DNA of 64,000 nucleotides from assembly GCF_053078305.1 (NCBI RefSeq), contig NZ_CP166879.1; one strand, given 5' to 3'. Position 1 is the first letter of the stretch; every line of letters starts with the position of its first letter. The notes beneath the pieces were generated by a model. The model saw only the letters and a list, made by a program, of their open reading frames with translations, was not told the DNA's origin and did no database searches. Made by a program: the position numbers and the translations under genes. Shown here in pieces: positions 21,837 through 26,815 of this stretch.

Positions 21837-21930
21837 AATATACAAAATATTTATTAATCTAATTATGGTATTTATATTTGGAATGCATTAATAATTTAAT
21901 AATCTCACGTTTTTTTAAACGACTAATTAT

Positions 21931-21944
21931 TTGATTGTTATCAG
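21931..21944 (+). promoter_or_regulatory. FNR-like binding site upstream of DMSO-reductase-family operon
   Basis: TTGATTGTTATCAG matches TTGAT-N4-ATCAA at 9/10; 56 bp upstream of ATG in an AT-rich region. Confidence 0.35.
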
Positions 21945-21999
21945 CATTGTTCTCGAATAAATACGTGAATATTTATTTTTTCATTTTCGGGAACGCAAG

Positions 22000-24381
22000 A
22001 TGGATACGCCAGACGAAAAGGAACGCATTACATTTCCGCAAGTATCACGACGTAGTTTTTTACAAGCGACTTCCGCGCTTATCACTTTGCCTTTTATTTC
22101 TTATACCGTAAAGGCGCAATCCCCAGATGCGTCGCCAGAAGTTACAGCTCCAGTAGCTGATAAAGTCGTGCCCACCTGTAGCACATTTGACTGCGGTGGT
22201 AAGTGCGATATTCGGGCGCATATGCGCGACGGTGTGGTGACGCAAATTACCACGCTTCCCGATAACGAACTGGATCCACAAATGCCGATTATGCGCGCCT
22301 GTGTTCGTGGTTGCGGCTATCGTAAATTTGTTTATCATCCAGACCGCCTCAAATATCCGATGAAACGGGTCGGTAAACGGGGCGAGGGGAAATTTGAGCG
22401 TATTTCATGGGATGAGGCGACGACCTTAATTGCCGATAACCTGAAAAGGATCACGCAACAATATGGCCCGGCTTCACGTTATGTCCATGTCGGGACGGCT
22501 GTTTCTGGTGGAACATTTTCTGGTGATGCGATGGCGCGTCGGCTGTTAAATTTAACCGGTGGTTATCTTGAATATTATCACTCAGTTAGTCTGGGTAATA
22601 CTGCGGCGGCAACGCCTTACACGTATGGCGTGGCGGCCAGCGGTAACTCGATGGATACTCTTCTGGATACCAAACTGGTGATCCTCTGGGGGCATAACCC
22701 AACGGAAACCATCTTCGGTCACACCAATTACTTTTTTCAAAAAATGAAGCAAAACGGTACGCGTTTTATCGTGGTAGATCCGCGTTATTCCGACACTGTA
22801 TCTTCGCTTGCCGATCAGTGGATCCCGCTGCTGCCGACCACGGACAATGCGTTGATGGACGCGATGATGTACGTCATTATCAGCGAAAATCTCCACAATA
22901 AGACATTTATCGACACATATACTCTCGGTTTTGATGAAAACTCTATGCCAGAAGGCGTACCAGCCAACGAATCGTTGGTTGCCTACCTTTTTGGCGCAAA
23001 AGATGGGATACACAAAACGCCGGAATGGGCAGAAAAAATTACCCACGTTCCAGCACAATCCATTCGTCAACTGGCACGCGATTACGCCACTACAAAACCC
23101 GCAGCGTTGATTCAGGGATGGGGGCCACAGCGACATATTTGCGGCGAACGCACCGCCCGAGGTTCAACTTTACTGGCCTCGATTACCGGTAACGTCGGCA
23201 TCAAAGGTGGCTGGGCGGCAGGTTACGGCGGTAGTTCTAATCGTAAATTCTGCGTTGGACCAGATATGCCAGAAAATCCGGTACAAGCGAAAATCTCGAT
23301 TATGAACTGGATGCAGGCGGCGGATGATGCTTCTAAAGTTACGCCGCAAGATGGGCTTAAAGGTGTCGATAAACTCGACAGTAATATCCGCCTGCTGTTC
23401 TCACTGGCAGGTAATTATCTGGCGAACCAGAACCCGGACGTCCACCAGGCCGCGAAGCTCCTTGAAGACGAATCTAAAATAGAATTCATCGTACTCAGCG
23501 ATCTGTTCATGACTCCGAGCGCGAAATATGCCGATGTGTTGCTGCCGGAAACCAGCTTTATGGAACGCTGGAATATCGGCGAAACATGGGGAACTGCGAG
23601 CTATCTTATTCTGTCAGAAAAACTGATTGAGCCGGATTTTGAACGTCGCACCGATTATGACTGGTTGCGTGACGTGGCGAAAAAACTGGGTGTCGAAGCC
23701 GAGTTCAGTCAAGGACGTGATGAGAAGCAATGGGTAGAGCATATCTGGGAGCAAACTCGTCTGGCGATGCCGGATGAAAATTTGCCGGACTTCGCGACCC
23801 TGCAAAAAACACGTCGACATCTTTTTAAAAGTGCGCCGCACATCGCTTTCGAAGCAAATATTCGCGATCCGCAGAATAATCCTTTCCCGACGCCTTCCGG
23901 CAAAATTGAGATCTTCTCTAAGCGTCTTTTTGATATGCAAGATCCAGAAATTCCCGCGCTTTCGCACTATGTCCCTGCATTTGAAGGGCCAGAAGATAAA
24001 CTGACGGCGAAATACCCGTTGCAGCTCATCACCTGGAAAGGGAAAAACCGTGCTAATTCCACCCAGTATGCTAACCCGTGGCTGCAAGAAGTTCAGACGC
24101 AAAAACTCTGGCTGAATCCGCAAGATGCAAAACAGCGCGGGATTAGCGAAGGAGATAGCGTAAAAATTTATAACGATCGTGGTGTGAGCATTATCCCGGT
24201 GGAAATAACCCCCCGTATCATCCCTGGCGTAGTTGCTATGCAGGCGGGGGCATGGTGGCAACCGGATGCACAAGGTATCGATCGCGGAGGCTGTGCCAAT
24301 GTACTGAGTTCGACCCGCATTACGGCGCTGGCGAAAGGGAATTCGCATCAAACAATGCTGGTGGAGGTTGAGAAAGCATGA
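22000..24381 (+). CDS. molybdopterin (DMSO reductase family) oxidoreductase catalytic subunit with Tat signal
   Basis: 793 aa; SRRSFLQATSAL twin-arginine motif; N-terminal CxxCxxxC Fe-S motif (CSTFDCGGKC). Confidence 0.85.
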   Translation: MDTPDEKERITFPQVSRRSFLQATSALITLPFISYTVKAQSPDASPEVTAPVADKVVPTCSTFDCGGKCDIRAHMRDGVVTQITTLPDNELDPQMPIMRACVRGCGYRKFVYHPDRLKYPMKRVGKRGEGKFERISWDEATTLIADNLKRITQQYGPASRYVHVGTAVSGGTFSGDAMARRLLNLTGGYLEYYHSVSLGNTAAATPYTYGVAASGNSMDTLLDTKLVILWGHNPTETIFGHTNYFFQKMKQNGTRFIVVDPRYSDTVSSLADQWIPLLPTTDNALMDAMMYVIISENLHNKTFIDTYTLGFDENSMPEGVPANESLVAYLFGAKDGIHKTPEWAEKITHVPAQSIRQLARDYATTKPAALIQGWGPQRHICGERTARGSTLLASITGNVGIKGGWAAGYGGSSNRKFCVGPDMPENPVQAKISIMNWMQAADDASKVTPQDGLKGVDKLDSNIRLLFSLAGNYLANQNPDVHQAAKLLEDESKIEFIVLSDLFMTPSAKYADVLLPETSFMERWNIGETWGTASYLILSEKLIEPDFERRTDYDWLRDVAKKLGVEAEFSQGRDEKQWVEHIWEQTRLAMPDENLPDFATLQKTRRHLFKSAPHIAFEANIRDPQNNPFPTPSGKIEIFSKRLFDMQDPEIPALSHYVPAFEGPEDKLTAKYPLQLITWKGKNRANSTQYANPWLQEVQTQKLWLNPQDAKQRGISEGDSVKIYNDRGVSIIPVEITPRIIPGVVAMQAGAWWQPDAQGIDRGGCANVLSSTRITALAKGNSHQTMLVEVEKA

Positions 24382-25007
24382 GCCAATTTAAAGAATTTGC
24401 ATCTGTCAGCGACAAACAATTAGGGTTCTTTATTGACTCTTCGCGTTGTTCTGGCTGTAAAGCGTGTCAGGTGGCCTGTAAAGACAAAAACAACCTTGAG
24501 GTTGGGCGACGTTTTCGCCGCGTGTATGAAGTGAACGGCGGTGGCTTCATCGCCACTGGAGAGGGCGGTGTGAGTCATAATGTCTTTGCTTATACCCTTT
24601 CTGTTTCCTGTAACCATTGCGCGGATCCGATCTGTACCAAAAATTGCCCGACGATGGCGATGCATAAGCGTCCCGGAGACGGCATTGTGCGCGTGAATAC
24701 TGATAAGTGCGTCGGTTGCGGTTACTGCGCCTGGTCCTGTCCTTACGGCGCACCACAAATGAATGAGCAGACCGGGCAGATGTCGAAATGCGATTTCTGT
24801 ATTGATCTGCAAGCTAAAGGAGAACAACCCATTTGCGTGGCAACGTGCCCGTTGGGGGCGATTAAGTTCGGCCCTATTGATGAGTTGCGTGAAAAGTATG
24901 GCGATGTCAGTGATGTGAAAGGTTTACCTGATTCGTCGATTACGCAGCCAAATCTGGTGATTAAACCGCATCAGGGCGCGGAAAAGGAGGCGTCACATCA
25001 TGCATGA
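24378..25007 (+). CDS. 4Fe-4S ferredoxin-type electron transfer subunit (DmsB-like)
   Basis: 209 aa with multiple CxxCxxCxxxCP motifs; ATGA overlap with upstream gene. Confidence 0.85.
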   Translation: MSQFKEFASVSDKQLGFFIDSSRCSGCKACQVACKDKNNLEVGRRFRRVYEVNGGGFIATGEGGVSHNVFAYTLSVSCNHCADPICTKNCPTMAMHKRPGDGIVRVNTDKCVGCGYCAWSCPYGAPQMNEQTGQMSKCDFCIDLQAKGEQPICVATCPLGAIKFGPIDELREKYGDVSDVKGLPDSSITQPNLVIKPHQGAEKEASHHA

Positions 25008-25821
25008 ATTACCGTTAATGGCTTTTACGCTGTTGTTACAGGCATCGGTCGGTATGACGTTGTGGCTGGCGTTTCTTCATCGTCATATTTTAATCACCTC
25101 CAGTGCCCGCCCGGTTATGCGACCGCCATTACTGTTGGCTTTTTTGGCCGGGGCAGTAGGGTTACTGATTTCTACCTTACACCTGGGTTATCCACTTAAT
25201 GCGATGCATGCGCTAAGTCACTTTTCCAGTTCATGGCTGAGTCGGGAAATTATCTTTGGTGCGCTGTATCTGGCGCTATTGGGTTTAACCACATTACTGG
25301 TCATGTTACACAAAGGCGGCTGGCAACTCCTTCTTATGCTAGCGGCAGTGGTCGGAATTGTTGATGTTTTCTGCATGGCGCAAGTTTACATCCATACGTC
25401 GATTATCACCTGGCAGCATTACAACACGCTGATTATGTTCTTAGGTACAGTGGGAATTCTCGGTTCAGCGCTGGTAGCAGTGTTTCGTATTAGCGGAATT
25501 TTGCCGCAGATTGATGCCCTGCGTAATGGATGCGTGTTGGTGATCGCTCTCCTGGTTCTGTTGCGCTTGTTGGTTCAGCCGTTGTGGGTAGGGGATTTAA
25601 CGGCGAATGCGATGCAGATAGCTACACTGCCACATGCGCCATTAGCGATGCTGGGACAGTTAAAACCCATACTGACACTAAGCTGGGGAATTTCCGTCAT
25701 TGGGATGATGTTCTTTGCTGTCGGTGGTTGTAAAAAGAATATCCCTGCGGCGTTATTCGGTAGCGTACTGCTAGTGGGCAGTGAAGTTATGCTGCGTTTT
25801 GTCTTTTTTAGTATCGGCTAA
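25000..25821 (+). CDS. integral membrane anchor subunit (DmsC-like)
   Basis: 273 aa, highly hydrophobic multi-TM; 8-bp overlap with upstream gene. Confidence 0.75.
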   Translation: MHELPLMAFTLLLQASVGMTLWLAFLHRHILITSSARPVMRPPLLLAFLAGAVGLLISTLHLGYPLNAMHALSHFSSSWLSREIIFGALYLALLGLTTLLVMLHKGGWQLLLMLAAVVGIVDVFCMAQVYIHTSIITWQHYNTLIMFLGTVGILGSALVAVFRISGILPQIDALRNGCVLVIALLVLLRLLVQPLWVGDLTANAMQIATLPHAPLAMLGQLKPILTLSWGISVIGMMFFAVGGCKKNIPAALFGSVLLVGSEVMLRFVFFSIG

Positions 25822-26675
25822 TGTTAAGTCATAACATAACGATTGGCGCGGAATGCGCGCGCCAACGCTTTCGTTTTGCAACATGTCATGCCTGTGTCGA
25901 GGCTTGCCCGGCACAGGCGCTAACGCTGACAGAAGAGGGCATAGCGGTCGACGCGGAACAATGTATTGAGTGTGCGGTTTGCCAGTTTATTTGTCCGCAA
26001 GAGGCTATTCGTGGCGTTAATTCCCCTTTACGTTATTTTCGCAATCACACCCTGGTCGCACCTTTCACCACTATTGCGCCGACGCTGGAAGAACTTTTGC
26101 TATGGCATAAAGAGCAGGGGATCACAGCGATCGCGATTGATCTGAGTCAGGCGAAGGCATGGGAGCGCGCATTATTGCTGTTAAACGAACGCTTACGGCA
26201 ATATGGCGAGGAAGGCTGGTCTGTGGTATCTCCACATACCAGTGAGGTGAATGTTTCCCGGCGTCGTTTGTTCCATGTGCAGCGTGCGGATGTTCAGATG
26301 ACACAAATACAACCAGGATTACGTCGGTTACATTATTTATGGCCCCAGATTAGTGATGCTCGCCCGATGATGGATCCTCAAAAGTGTCAGCTTTGCGGTG
26401 CATGCTGGCGGGCCTGCGAGCAACAGGTCTTTTCGCTTAACGAAGGCCATTTACAAATCAATGATGCCTTGTGTAACGGATGCCAAAATTGTATTGCTGT
26501 TTGTTTTCATCAGGCAATGACCGTTGAATTGACGATTCTACCGGCAAAAATTGTGAATCTTCATGCTAATCGCAAAGTCTGTAAAACCTGTCAAAAATCC
26601 TTTCTTACTTTTCAGCAAAATGCGCAAAATTGTCTTTATTGCCAACGTCATCGCTATGGGATGAGAGCACCATAA
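25821..26675 (+). CDS. cysteine-rich ferredoxin-like protein, fourth gene of the operon
   Basis: 284 aa; motifs CHACVEACP, CIECAVCQFICP, CQLCGACWRAC, CNGCQNCIAVC; TAATG stop/start overlap. Confidence 0.7.
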   Translation: MLSHNITIGAECARQRFRFATCHACVEACPAQALTLTEEGIAVDAEQCIECAVCQFICPQEAIRGVNSPLRYFRNHTLVAPFTTIAPTLEELLLWHKEQGITAIAIDLSQAKAWERALLLLNERLRQYGEEGWSVVSPHTSEVNVSRRRLFHVQRADVQMTQIQPGLRRLHYLWPQISDARPMMDPQKCQLCGACWRACEQQVFSLNEGHLQINDALCNGCQNCIAVCFHQAMTVELTILPAKIVNLHANRKVCKTCQKSFLTFQQNAQNCLYCQRHRYGMRAP

Positions 26676-26815
26676 AAGTCGAGTTGTTGCTAAAACTCAT
26701 TTTATTTTAAAAAAATGTTACCTTCATCAATAGTCAACGGCCCTGTTGCTCATTATAATCCGCGCCATCTCGTACGCTGGTACAGACAACAACAGAACAA
26801 TTTACAGAGGTAAAA

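What the first reader, a model, noticed from the sequence alone, without database searches (positions are those of the whole stretch)
25821..26675. Fourth operon gene is a multi-cluster ferredoxin-like protein rather than a TorD/DmsD-type chaperone
Canonical dmsABC and ynfEFGH loci are accompanied by a DmsD/TorD-family Tat chaperone. Here the terminal 284-aa gene instead carries four Cys-rich motifs (CHACVEACP, CIECAVCQFICP, CQLCGACWRAC, CNGCQNCIAVC), suggesting an additional Fe-S electron-transfer or maturation component. Its role is unclear.
Basis: partly seen in the sequence, partly recalled or inferred. Interest (0 to 1): 0.4.

Follow-up and report, generated by a model that had tools for sequence, protein, structure and literature searches.

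The report
Unnamed iron-sulfur helper of DMSO-type reductase
The last gene of this accessory E. coli reductase operon encodes a real, conserved protein with four iron-sulfur cluster sites; it belongs to a widespread family with no functional name that always sits beside DMSO-reductase-type enzymes, and it most likely helps build the enzyme rather than being a working part of it.

Summary
ORF 25821-26675 (+) encodes 284 aa, and its start overlaps the dmsC-like stop (TAATG). It has two 2x[4Fe-4S] ferredoxin domains and no TorD/DmsD domain.

- The first motif's fourth ligand is C12 (C-x9-C-x2-C-x3-C).
- A fifth Cys4 site lies at C254/C257/C271/C274.
- A twin-arginine-like motif (S-R-R-x-[LFW]-[LF]; SRRRLF here, residues 146-151) sits inside the protein.

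All 20 cysteines are invariant in 61 relatives that are 22-71% identical.

The protein belongs to an unnamed family. Public names are only "4Fe-4S binding protein", "ferredoxin" or "polyferredoxin". Nearly all loci examined encode it within a DmsA-type molybdoenzyme operon. One Bacillota locus has it about 5 kb upstream of one, and one contig was too short to tell. A TorD-family chaperone gene is often adjacent or one gene away. So it is an addition to the chaperone, not a replacement.

It fails the NapF family model. Neither the whole protein nor its 115-aa middle domain has a solved structural relative beyond the ferredoxin domains.

Best reading (about 0.5): a cytoplasmic, NapF-like maturation factor for the Tat-exported DmsA paralogue. 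No experiment supports this yet. The four-gene island is present in 379 of 5426 complete E. coli genomes and corresponds by position and sequence to Salmonella STM2530-2527.

The parts
21931..21944 (+). FNR-like box TTGATTGTTATCAG (9 of 10 matches to TTGAT-N4-ATCAA), ending 55 bp before the dmsA-like start codon
   Evidence: The pattern is not enriched in the window (4 matches found, 2.7 expected), so this is only a positional hint of anaerobic control.
22000..24381 (+). dmsA-like catalytic subunit (793 aa), a Mo-bisPGD enzyme of the DmsA/YnfE clade of unknown substrate
   Evidence: TIGR02166 scores 1118 bits (cutoff 777.7) but falls below the DmsA, YnfE and YnfF exception cutoffs. Pfam finds Molybdopterin, Molydop_binding and Molybdop_Fe4S4.
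22045..22065 (+). Twin-arginine (Tat) motif SRRSFLQ of the DmsA-like precursor
   Evidence: Read from the translation and aligned with the K-12 DmsA, YnfE and YnfF leaders. The leader also shares the (I/L)TLPF element with them.
24378..25007 (+). dmsB-like four-cluster electron-transfer subunit (209 aa)
   Evidence: TIGR02951 scores 265.8 bits (cutoff 214.1); Fer4_11. Its start overlaps the dmsA stop by 4 nt.
25000..25821 (+). dmsC-like membrane anchor (273 aa)
   Evidence: PF04976 DmsC, 6.2e-24.
25821..26675 (+). The gene in question ('X'): a 284-aa protein with sites for four [4Fe-4S] clusters plus a Cys4 site, in an unnamed family
   Evidence: RefSeq calls it '4Fe-4S dicluster domain-containing protein'.
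25854..25994 (+). N-terminal 2x[4Fe-4S] ferredoxin domain: C12, C22, C25, C29 and C48, C51, C54, C58
   Evidence: hhalign matches it to E. coli NapF residues 94-158, including the atypical long-spaced first motif.
26010..26366 (+). Cysteine-free alpha/beta middle domain (residues 64-182) with the conserved E-L-L core (EELLLWH in the closest relatives), N122, L125 and, in most members, W114
26256..26273 (+). Internal twin-arginine-like motif SRRRLF (residues 146-151) in a lower-confidence, probably flexible segment
   Evidence: Column counts: the two arginines are kept in 51 and 59 of 61 sequences in the X subfamily and in 36 and 38 of 38 in the sister subfamily. pLDDT is 63 for residues 141-150. 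The motif aligns to the N-terminal SRRGIL of NapF.
26385..26504 (+). C-terminal 2x[4Fe-4S] ferredoxin domain: C189, C192, C195, C199 and C218, C221, C224, C228
26580..26651 (+). C-terminal Cys4 site, ribbon-like by motif spacing: C254, C257, C271, C274 and then H277. The metal is unknown (Zn or Fe).
   Evidence: The four cysteines are invariant in alignments A1, A2 and A4; H277 is invariant in A1. Motif list.

Best explanation
X is a soluble, cytoplasmic iron-sulfur accessory protein dedicated to a DmsA-clade molybdoenzyme. It has sites for four [4Fe-4S] clusters in two ferredoxin domains plus a C-terminal Cys4 metal site. It most likely acts during maturation of the Tat-exported DmsA-like/DmsB-like pair, before export, in the way NapF is thought to act for the periplasmic nitrate reductase. 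It would either supply or repair the enzyme's Fe-S cluster(s), or keep cofactors reduced while the TorD/DmsD-type chaperone holds the precursor. Its conserved internal S-R-R-x-F/L-F/L segment is proposed as a docking handle that resembles a Tat signal n-region. Shown here: the cluster-binding architecture, family-wide conservation, the strict genomic link to DmsA-type operons, the frequent TorD neighbour, the absence of an N-terminal signal or membrane segment, and purifying selection. Inferred: cytoplasmic location, the maturation role, and any function of the RR motif.
For: (1) Architecture. Two dicluster domains, 20 of 20 cysteines invariant over 61 relatives, and a confident AF2 model (pLDDT 92.7, pTM 0.89).
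(2) Location. The first invariant ligand is residue 12, which leaves no room for a cleavable signal peptide. The maximum 19-residue hydropathy is 1.42, so no membrane helix is expected.
(3) Genomic link. X lies in the same operon as a DmsA-like gene in the 18 loci first collected and in every later locus, with two exceptions: L019, where it sits about 5 kb upstream, and L023, a 1.4-kb contig too short to tell. Six operon architectures are seen. Every distant partner enzyme scanned has TIGR02166 as its best family, as does the window's own DmsA.
(4) Grouping with maturation genes rather than structural genes. X precedes a radical-SAM gene and TorD, upstream of A-B-C, in L020 and L024. It follows TorD in L021, L025-L027 and L034. 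It sits between DmsB and TorD in Paraferrimonas, which has no DmsC at all, so X does not depend on the membrane anchor.
(5) Evolutionary rate. In syntenic pbpC|ABCX|ndk loci, identity to E. coli is 38-44% for X, against 82-83% for DmsA (L011 is split into two segments of 75% and 82%), 86-89% for DmsB, about 80% for PbpC and about 95% for Ndk. Within Escherichia, dN/dS is 0.125-0.167 for X and 0.073 for DmsA (comparisons with L009 and L010). That is a constrained but fast-evolving surface, typical of an accessory factor rather than a permanent redox subunit.
(6) NapF resemblance. hhalign gives 96.7% probability between the N-terminal domain and NapF residues 94-158, sharing the odd long-spaced first motif. 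The C-terminal half aligns from its SRR motif to NapF's N-terminal SRRGIL at 96.9%. NapF is described as a cytoplasmic four-cluster protein that interacts with NapA and is needed for its Fe-S assembly (PMC10609526).
(7) Precedent for the docking idea. NarJ/TorD/DmsD-type chaperones bind Tat or remnant-Tat peptides, and FS0 insertion precedes Moco insertion (PMC10609526).
(8) Precedent for extra dms accessory genes. H. influenzae dmsABCDE encodes DmsD plus a NapF-like DmsE (PMC8340005). Deleting dmsH in Shewanella impairs DMSO growth and iodate reduction (PMC11302344).
Against: There is no experimental datum for X or any confirmed family member. X does not reach the NapF model TIGR00402, while the E. 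coli NapF control scores 248 bits. The hhalign matches cover generic ferredoxin motifs plus short features. The role of NapF is itself debated. The RR motif is internal and not followed by a hydrophobic h-region, whereas chaperone binding to signal peptides is largely through hydrophobic contacts. Tight translational coupling to dmsC would also fit a stoichiometric subunit. STM2530, the corresponding Salmonella enzyme, has no known substrate and gave no DMSO phenotype, so there is no assay yet. Homology of X to Shewanella DmsH or Haemophilus DmsE could not be tested.
Confidence: 0.5

Rival explanations
1. X is an extra redox subunit of the mature enzyme. It would fold with its clusters in the cytoplasm, be carried across the membrane with the DmsA-like/DmsB-like pair on DmsA's Tat signal, and extend or branch the periplasmic electron-transfer chain.
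For: It has four cluster sites like a polyferredoxin. The best PDB sequence matches are MvhB and FwdF (4e-16 and 1e-9; Foldseek hits to FwdF and HycF). It is translationally coupled to dmsC at the end of the structural genes. DmsB also lacks a signal peptide of its own. Paraferrimonas has A-B-X without DmsC, so X could stand in as the partner there.
Against: Gene position varies and tracks TorD and radical-SAM genes, not the structural genes. X diverges far faster than DmsA and DmsB (38-44% against 82-89% identity), which is unusual for a permanently docked electron-transfer subunit. E. coli DmsABC and YnfFGH work without such a subunit (established knowledge; searches show no such gene beside them). 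The C-terminal Cys4 site, ribbon-like by spacing, and the flexible internal RR segment are not features of known DmsB-type partners.
Confidence: 0.15
2. X is a cytoplasmic electron carrier rather than a cluster donor. It would pass low-potential electrons to a partner: the radical-SAM enzyme encoded next to it in some operons, a reductive activation step of the Mo cofactor, or a cytoplasmic donor/acceptor pathway feeding the quinone pool.
For: Two ferredoxin domains in one confident, compact model (pTM 0.89) would suit electron transfer. X is immediately followed by a radical-SAM gene in L020 and L024, and a radical-SAM/SPASM gene lies nearby in L019. The sister subfamily carries a further Cys4 motif in the middle domain, giving a longer putative wire.
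Against: The E. coli island and most enterobacterial operons have no radical-SAM gene. DmsC has no redox cofactor that could accept electrons from the cytoplasmic side (established knowledge of DmsABC). No dehydrogenase or flavin domain is fused to X or conserved next to it.
Confidence: 0.2
3. X is a redox- or Fe-S-based sensor or regulator of the operon.
For: In the sister subfamily the gene is directly followed by a HAMP/PAS histidine kinase and a sigma-54 response regulator. In L019 a two-component pair lies nearby.
Against: X has no DNA-binding or signalling domain. The enterobacterial loci have no adjacent regulator. In L026 and L027 the kinase and regulator lie divergently upstream of the operon rather than next to X.
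Confidence: 0.05
4. X is a decaying or functionless remnant in E. coli, where the chaperone gene has been lost and the island is absent from most strains.
For: The island is complete in only 379 of 5426 complete genomes. There is no TorD-family gene in the island.
Against: The ORF is intact and all 20 cysteines are kept. dN/dS is 0.125-0.167. The 90%-identity cluster holds 380 member sequences. DmsD is encoded elsewhere in E. coli, and the DmsA-like leader shares the (I/L)TLPF element of the K-12 DmsA, YnfE and YnfF leaders.
Confidence: 0.03

Closest known systems
NapF (ferredoxin-type protein of the periplasmic nitrate reductase operon, TIGR00402)
   Same: Both are soluble, have four Cys4 motifs and lack an export signal. 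Both are encoded in the operon of a Tat-exported Mo-bisPGD enzyme next to that enzyme's chaperone. They share one atypical long-spaced motif (C-x9-C-x2-C-x3-C in X, C-x7-C-x2-C-x3-C in NapF) and a non-exporting S-R-R motif. A maturation role is proposed for NapF (PMC10609526).
   Different: X does not reach the NapF model. X is 284 aa against 164. The domain order is different: the NapF-C-terminal-like domain comes first and the RR motif is internal. X has an extra 115-aa middle domain of unknown fold and an extra C-terminal Cys4 site. Its partner is a DmsA-clade enzyme, not NapA.
TorD/DmsD/NarJ redox-enzyme maturation chaperones (PF02613)
   Same: Both occupy the 'accessory gene' slot of S-/N-oxide reductase operons, and both are probably cytoplasmic and act before export.
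   Different: They are unrelated in sequence and fold: all-helical and cofactor-free against ferredoxin domains with 20 cysteines. They are often encoded side by side with X, so X is not their replacement.
Haemophilus influenzae DmsE (fifth gene of dmsABCDE) and Shewanella oneidensis DmsH (last gene of dmsEFABGH)
   Same: Both are extra accessory genes at the end of dms operons beside a TorD-like gene. DmsE is described as NapF-homologous (PMC8340005). DmsH is described as predicted cytoplasmic with unknown function, and its deletion lowers DMSO growth (OD 0.25 against 1.26) and iodate reduction (35.6% against 100%) (PMC11302344). The gene order A-B-TorD-X in the sister subfamily mirrors dmsA-B-G-H.
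   Different: S. piezotolerans DmsH is annotated only as a 'conserved hypothetical protein'.
Archaeal polyferredoxins (MvhB, FwdF, VhuB) and HycF-type subunits
   Same: These are the best sequence and structure matches in the PDB. They have tandem 2x[4Fe-4S] ferredoxin domains.
DmsB/YnfG four-cluster subunit (TIGR02951, PF13247)
   Same: It also has four [4Fe-4S] sites and is encoded in the same operon.
   Different: X has no Fer4_11 hit and only 26.6 bits to TIGR02951 (cutoff 214.1) for its N-terminal domain alone. The true DmsB homologue is the second gene of the operon.

Membership tests
TorD/DmsD/NarJ chaperone family (PF02613) | Match to the Nitrate_red_del domain and an all-helical fold | tested here: not met
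   No PF02613 hit at E<=0.01. tblastn with a PF02613 protein from L006 finds nothing in the window. The AF2 model consists of ferredoxin domains plus an alpha/beta domain.
Bacterial 2x[4Fe-4S] ferredoxin domain (PF00037, PF12838, PF14697) | Two CxxCxxCxxxC(P) motifs per domain, above the Pfam gathering score | tested here: met
NapF (TIGR00402) | Score above the curated cutoff of the NapF equivalog model | tested here: not met
   TIGR00402 is not among the listed hits for the whole protein or for either half (the best 25 are shown per query). E. coli NapF scores 248 bits (cutoff 102.2) in the same run.
NapF (TIGR00402) | Four cysteine clusters in a soluble protein without a functional export signal | tested here: met
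   Four Cys4 motifs. The first ligand is at residue 12 and maximum hydropathy is 1.42. This is sequence-level evidence only.
NapF (TIGR00402) | Encoded in a nap operon and interacting with NapA | tested here: not met
   The operon is dmsABC-like, not nap. Interaction with the catalytic subunit cannot be tested here.
NapF (TIGR00402) | N-terminal vestigial twin-arginine motif | tested here: inconclusive
   X has a conserved S-R-R-x-L/F-L/F motif, but it is internal (residues 146-151). It aligns with NapF's SRRGIL at 96.9% hhalign probability, against a single NapF sequence.
DmsB/YnfG (TIGR02951, PF13247) | Fer4_11 four-cluster fold above cutoff | tested here: not met
   No PF13247 hit. 26.6 bits against a cutoff of 214.1.
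Polyferredoxin (VhuB NF045874, FwdF NF042909) | Score above the curated cutoff; six to eight tandem cluster motifs | tested here: not met
   39.5 bits against 600, and 40.0 against 375. X has only four canonical motifs.
Unnamed 'X' family defined here (alignments A2 and A4) | Architecture: ferredoxin domain, middle domain, S-R-R motif, ferredoxin domain, then C-terminal CxxC-x(13-20)-CxxC, with all 20 cysteines conserved | tested here: met
   All 20 cysteines are invariant in 61 sequences. 76 representative clusters score E<1e-30. The sister subfamily aligns over its full length at hhalign probability 100%, E 4.5e-53, and at least 688 proteins score E<=1e-20 to its profile.
Unnamed 'X' family defined here (alignments A2 and A4) | Encoded in or next to an operon for a DmsA-clade Mo-bisPGD enzyme | tested here: met
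   with partner-enzyme typing. One Bacillota locus has it about 5 kb upstream rather than inside the operon. One short contig (L023) is uninformative.
Shewanella DmsH / Haemophilus DmsE | Sequence homology to SO_1432 or HI_1043 | not testable with these tools
   No sequence could be retrieved. Only descriptions in papers were available.

The most novel reading that the evidence does not exclude
X defines a new class of maturation factor for DmsA-type molybdoenzymes. Its conserved internal S-R-R-x-F-F segment would be a signal-peptide mimic. By docking onto the TorD/DmsD-type chaperone (or the TatBC receptor) it would bring four Fe-S clusters to the held precursor and couple Fe-S insertion to Tat proofreading. 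That checkpoint component would be missing from current models built on E. coli K-12, which lacks the gene.
Probability: 0.2. Interest if true: 0.7.

Novelty: new variant of a known kind. Interest (0 to 1): 0.5.

Why it matters
Maturation of Tat-exported molybdoenzymes is modelled almost entirely on K-12 systems with a single TorD-type chaperone. How the catalytic subunit's Fe-S cluster is delivered before Moco insertion remains an open question (PMC10609526). This work identifies a large family with no functional name that is tied to DmsA-type enzymes. It has 76 clusters at 50% identity below E 1e-30 for the short form, and at least 688 proteins at E<=1e-20 for the long form. It occurs in Enterobacterales (E. 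coli O157:H7, Salmonella, the Enterobacter cloacae complex, Proteus, Citrobacter), Vibrionaceae, Alpha- and Betaproteobacteria and Bacillota. The family gives a concrete, genetically tractable candidate for that delivery step. It may also explain why the Salmonella STM2530 enzyme could not be made to work from a plasmid carrying the catalytic gene alone. For genome annotation, it replaces a generic '4Fe-4S binding protein' label with a specific context.

Tried and rejected
- TorD/DmsD identity: rejected. There is no PF02613 hit and no tblastn hit.
- NapF membership: rejected on the curated model, with a positive control.
- DmsB-like or polyferredoxin membership: all scores are far below cutoff.
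- The afdb50 library was unavailable.
- The search for related loci with the 61-sequence alignment failed because no stretch was conserved enough. With the 13-sequence alignment only one peptide pattern was used, giving 10 loci.
- A shared peculiarity of the partner enzymes' FS0 motif was looked for and is not consistent. The X-subfamily partners aligned (E. coli island, L004, L006) and Paraferrimonas have C-x4-C-x3-C, L020 and L024 have C-x3-C-x3-C, and sister-subfamily partners have C-x3-C-x3-H.
- An internal translation start before the RR motif was considered and rejected. There is no Met in E. coli X, and the position two residues before the RR pair is merely hydrophobic.
- Literature searches for O157 locus tags and for SO_1432 gave nothing usable about the protein. 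PMC1450229, tried from memory as the id of the Gralnick 2006 Shewanella paper, is not held.
- Cluster look-ups gave organism names but no functional names and no Haemophilus or Shewanella members.
- The promoter/terminator scan showed nothing above shuffled expectation.
Full report
**What is at the coordinates.** The window is an Escherichia coli chromosome segment with the gene order yfhM, pbpC, four extra genes, ndk, rlmN, rodZ, ispG. The four extra genes form a tightly packed + strand operon:
- a dmsA-like gene at 22000-24381, which scores 1118 bits to TIGR02166 and carries the Tat motif SRRSFLQ;
- a dmsB-like gene at 24378-25007;
- a dmsC-like gene at 25000-25821;
- the ORF in question, here called X, at 25821-26675, encoding 284 aa.

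The ATG of X overlaps the dmsC stop codon (TAATG). Pfam resolves them into two 2x[4Fe-4S] ferredoxin domains at residues about 20-65 and 180-235, with no TorD/DmsD domain.

An alignment of 13 relatives, later extended to 61 relatives at 22-71% identity, shows that every one of the protein's 20 cysteines is invariant.
- The first motif is completed by C12, giving C-x9-C-x2-C-x3-C.
- A fifth motif, C254-x2-C257-x13-C271-x2-C274, forms a C-terminal Cys4 site. H277 follows it and is invariant in the 13 closest relatives.
- A cysteine-free domain of about 115 residues lies between the ferredoxin domains. Its conserved features are the E-L-L core (EELLLWH in the closest relatives), N122 and L125.
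- Just after that domain comes the best-conserved non-cysteine feature of the family, S-R-R-x-[L/F/W]-[L/F]. In E. coli it reads SRRRLF at residues 146-151. The two arginines are kept in 51 and 59 of 61 sequences.

That motif matches the n-region consensus of twin-arginine signal peptides, SRRxFLK (consensus as given in the abstract of PMC3712460). Here it is internal, is not followed by a hydrophobic stretch, and lies in the lowest-confidence segment of the model other than the C-terminal tail. The model is otherwise very confident (pLDDT 92.7, pTM 0.89; pLDDT 63 for residues 141-150).

**Is it a known family?** No curated NCBIfam model reaches its cutoff. Two alternatives were tested specifically.
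- NapF (TIGR00402) is not among the listed hits for the whole protein or for either half, while E. coli NapF scores 248 bits in the same run.
- The DmsB model scores 26.6 bits against a cutoff of 214.1.

**Size and spread of the family.** A profile scan of 1.84 billion representative proteins gives 76 clusters below E 1e-30. About 60 of them are full-length proteins of 280-311 aa with the same architecture. A sister group of 330-365 aa aligns over the whole length (hhalign probability 100%, E 4.5e-53). It carries four further invariant cysteines in the middle domain, and at least 688 proteins score E<=1e-20 to its profile. Named members come from:
- Enterobacterales: Escherichia, Citrobacter, Salmonella arizonae and diarizonae, Leclercia, the Enterobacter cloacae complex, Lelliottia, Siccibacter, Proteus, Rahnella and Chimaeribacter;
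- other Gammaproteobacteria: Photobacterium, Paraferrimonas, Thioploca and Chromatiaceae;
- other groups: Uliginosibacterium, Rhodobacter and Mesobacillus.

**Genomic context, the main evidence for function.** Apart from one 1.4-kb contig that is uninformative, every locus examined pairs X with a DmsA-clade molybdoenzyme. TIGR02166 is the best family for all three distant partner enzymes scanned (L021, L025, L024) and for the window's own DmsA. Seven arrangements were seen:
- A-B-C-X: the pbpC/ndk locus of Enterobacteriaceae, a Rahnella megaplasmid, and L004.
- A-B-C-X-TorD: L003, L006-L008 and Chimaeribacter.
- A-B-X-TorD with no DmsC: Paraferrimonas.
- TorD-A-B-C-X between IS26 and ISKpn26 on a Citrobacter IncFIB plasmid.
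- X, radical-SAM gene, TorD, then A-B-C.
- Cytochrome, A, B, TorD, X: the sister subfamily, where a histidine kinase and sigma-54 regulator follow X in two loci (L025, L034).
- X about 5 kb upstream of an FeS, NrfD, Mo-enzyme operon in a Bacillota genome.

Three conclusions follow. X is an addition to the TorD-type chaperone, not a substitute. It does not depend on DmsC. Its position tracks the maturation genes rather than the structural genes.

**Evolutionary behaviour.** The pbpC|ABCX|ndk arrangement is shared by Escherichia, Salmonella, Pseudocitrobacter, Enterobacter, Lelliottia and Huaxiibacter. The island is therefore probably ancestral and lost in most E. coli. It is complete in 379 of 5426 complete genomes, including O157:H7, and absent from K-12.

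Across these syntenic loci, identity to the E. coli proteins is as follows:

| Protein | Identity to E. coli |
|---|---|
| DmsA | 82-83% (Pseudocitrobacter L011 splits into segments of 75% and 82%) |
| DmsB | 86-89% |
| PbpC | about 80% |
| Ndk | about 95% |
| DmsC | about 50% |
| X | 38-44% |

Within Escherichia, using the two comparisons with enough divergence (L009, L010), dN/dS is 0.125-0.167 for X against 0.073 for DmsA. X is therefore a functional gene. Its cluster ligands are frozen while its surface changes quickly. This fits an accessory factor better than a permanently docked electron-transfer subunit.

**Relation to NapF.** Profile comparison aligns the N-terminal domain of X with NapF residues 94-158. 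The alignment includes NapF's own long-spaced motif (C-x7-C-x2-C-x3-C) and has 96.7% probability. The C-terminal half of X aligns from its SRR motif to NapF's N-terminal SRRGIL at 96.9%. These are short, partly generic matches against a single NapF sequence. I treat them as a functional analogy and possibly distant kinship, not as family membership.

According to the review PMC10609526, NapF is cytoplasmic, carries four labile [4Fe-4S] clusters, interacts with NapA, and was required for in vitro Fe-S reconstitution of Rhodobacter NapA. The review also notes that its importance varies between organisms. The same review states that NarJ/TorD/DmsD-type chaperones bind Tat or remnant-Tat peptides and that Fe-S insertion precedes Moco insertion.

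**Most likely mechanism.**
- Shown: X can bind four [4Fe-4S] clusters plus one Cys4 metal. The first ligand at residue 12 leaves no room for an N-terminal signal peptide, and there is no membrane segment (maximum hydropathy 1.42).
- Inferred: X stays in the cytoplasm and acts on the DmsA-like/DmsB-like precursor before Tat export. It would either donate or repair Fe-S clusters or provide reducing equivalents. In E. coli it would work with DmsD encoded elsewhere. The island DmsA leader shares the (I/L)TLPF element of the K-12 DmsA, YnfE and YnfF leaders.
- Speculative: the internal RR segment docks X onto the chaperone or onto the Tat receptor.

I put about 0.5 on the maturation role. The rivals are a cytoplasmic electron carrier, for example for the adjacent radical-SAM enzyme (0.2), a co-exported extra redox subunit (0.15), a sensor (0.05) and a decaying gene (0.03).

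**Literature.** Salmonella STM2530-2527 is described as a dmsABC-like operon with a fourth gene. I equate it with this island because Salmonella arizonae and diarizonae carry the A-B-C-X operon between pbpC and ndk. LT2 itself was not examined here. The preprint notes the fourth gene without giving it a function. STM2530 supplied alone in trans did not restore DMSO-dependent growth, and its substrate is unknown (bioRxiv 10.1101/2022.11.29.517730).

Two other dms operons have extra accessory genes. H. influenzae dmsABCDE encodes DmsE, described as NapF-homologous (PMC8340005). S. oneidensis dmsEFABGH encodes DmsH, of unknown function and predicted cytoplasmic; its deletion cuts DMSO growth and iodate reduction (PMC11302344). 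This is the cheapest decisive check.

**Verdict.** The gene is a conserved member of a large family with no functional name, specifically tied to DmsA-type molybdoenzymes. It resembles NapF in probable role but differs from it in architecture. Its internal twin-arginine-like motif does not appear in any paper read here. It is not categorically new biology, but it is a well-defined and testable candidate for a missing maturation step.

Noticed in passing
window 21837-26684: The four-gene dms-like island is a presence/absence polymorphism in E. coli. It is complete in 379 of 5426 complete genomes (including O157:H7) and absent from K-12. In K-12 only about 16 nt separate the pbpC stop from the shared ndk upstream sequence, and the last codons of pbpC differ between the two forms. 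The same pbpC|island|ndk arrangement occurs in Salmonella, Enterobacter, Lelliottia, Pseudocitrobacter and Huaxiibacter, which suggests ancestral presence and repeated loss.
   Followed up: partly
window 21931-21944: An FNR-like half-palindrome, TTGATTGTTATCAG, ends 55 bp before the dmsA-like start codon. This would fit anaerobic induction, but the pattern is not enriched in the window.
   Followed up: no
window 22174-22203 (DmsA-like residues 59-68): The FS0 cluster motif of the island DmsA is CSTFDCGGKC (C-x4-C-x3-C). That is one residue longer than in K-12 DmsA, YnfE and YnfF (C-x3-C-x3-C). The identical motif occurs in the Paraferrimonas partner enzyme. Partner enzymes of the sister subfamily have His in place of the third Cys (CAHNCGSRH).
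   Followed up: partly
window 25843-25865: A GC-rich inverted repeat (TTGGCGCGGAATGCGCGCGCCAA) lies 22 nt into the X coding sequence, just after the overlapping stop/start. It could modulate translational coupling between dmsC and X.
   Followed up: no
L020 6634-7974; L024 7876-9207: In one branch of the family, X is immediately followed by an uncharacterised radical-SAM protein of about 445 aa (best NCBIfam hit only 45 bits, to HxsC) and then by the TorD-family gene, upstream of the Mo enzyme. This hints at a further maturation or modification step for that enzyme clade.
   Followed up: partly
alignment A4 (for example L021 5607-6659, L026 8001-9059): The 330-365 aa sister subfamily has four extra invariant cysteines in the middle domain (C96, C110, C137, C140 in P0106). 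That is a possible additional metal or Fe-S cluster site that the E. coli-type proteins have lost or never had.
   Followed up: partly
L032 (C. freundii plasmid NZ_CP099223.1) 2106-8852: A complete cassette of AraC regulator, TorD, DmsA-like, DmsB, DmsC and X sits on a 53-kb IncFIB plasmid between IS26 and ISKpn26, so this type of module can be mobile.
   Followed up: no
protein cluster of P0026: One 90%-identity cluster lists 262-aa DmsC/YnfH proteins of Enterobacter together with the 291-aa X homologues. This could be a clustering artefact, or it could come from fused or overlapping gene calls at the dmsC-X junction.
   Followed up: no
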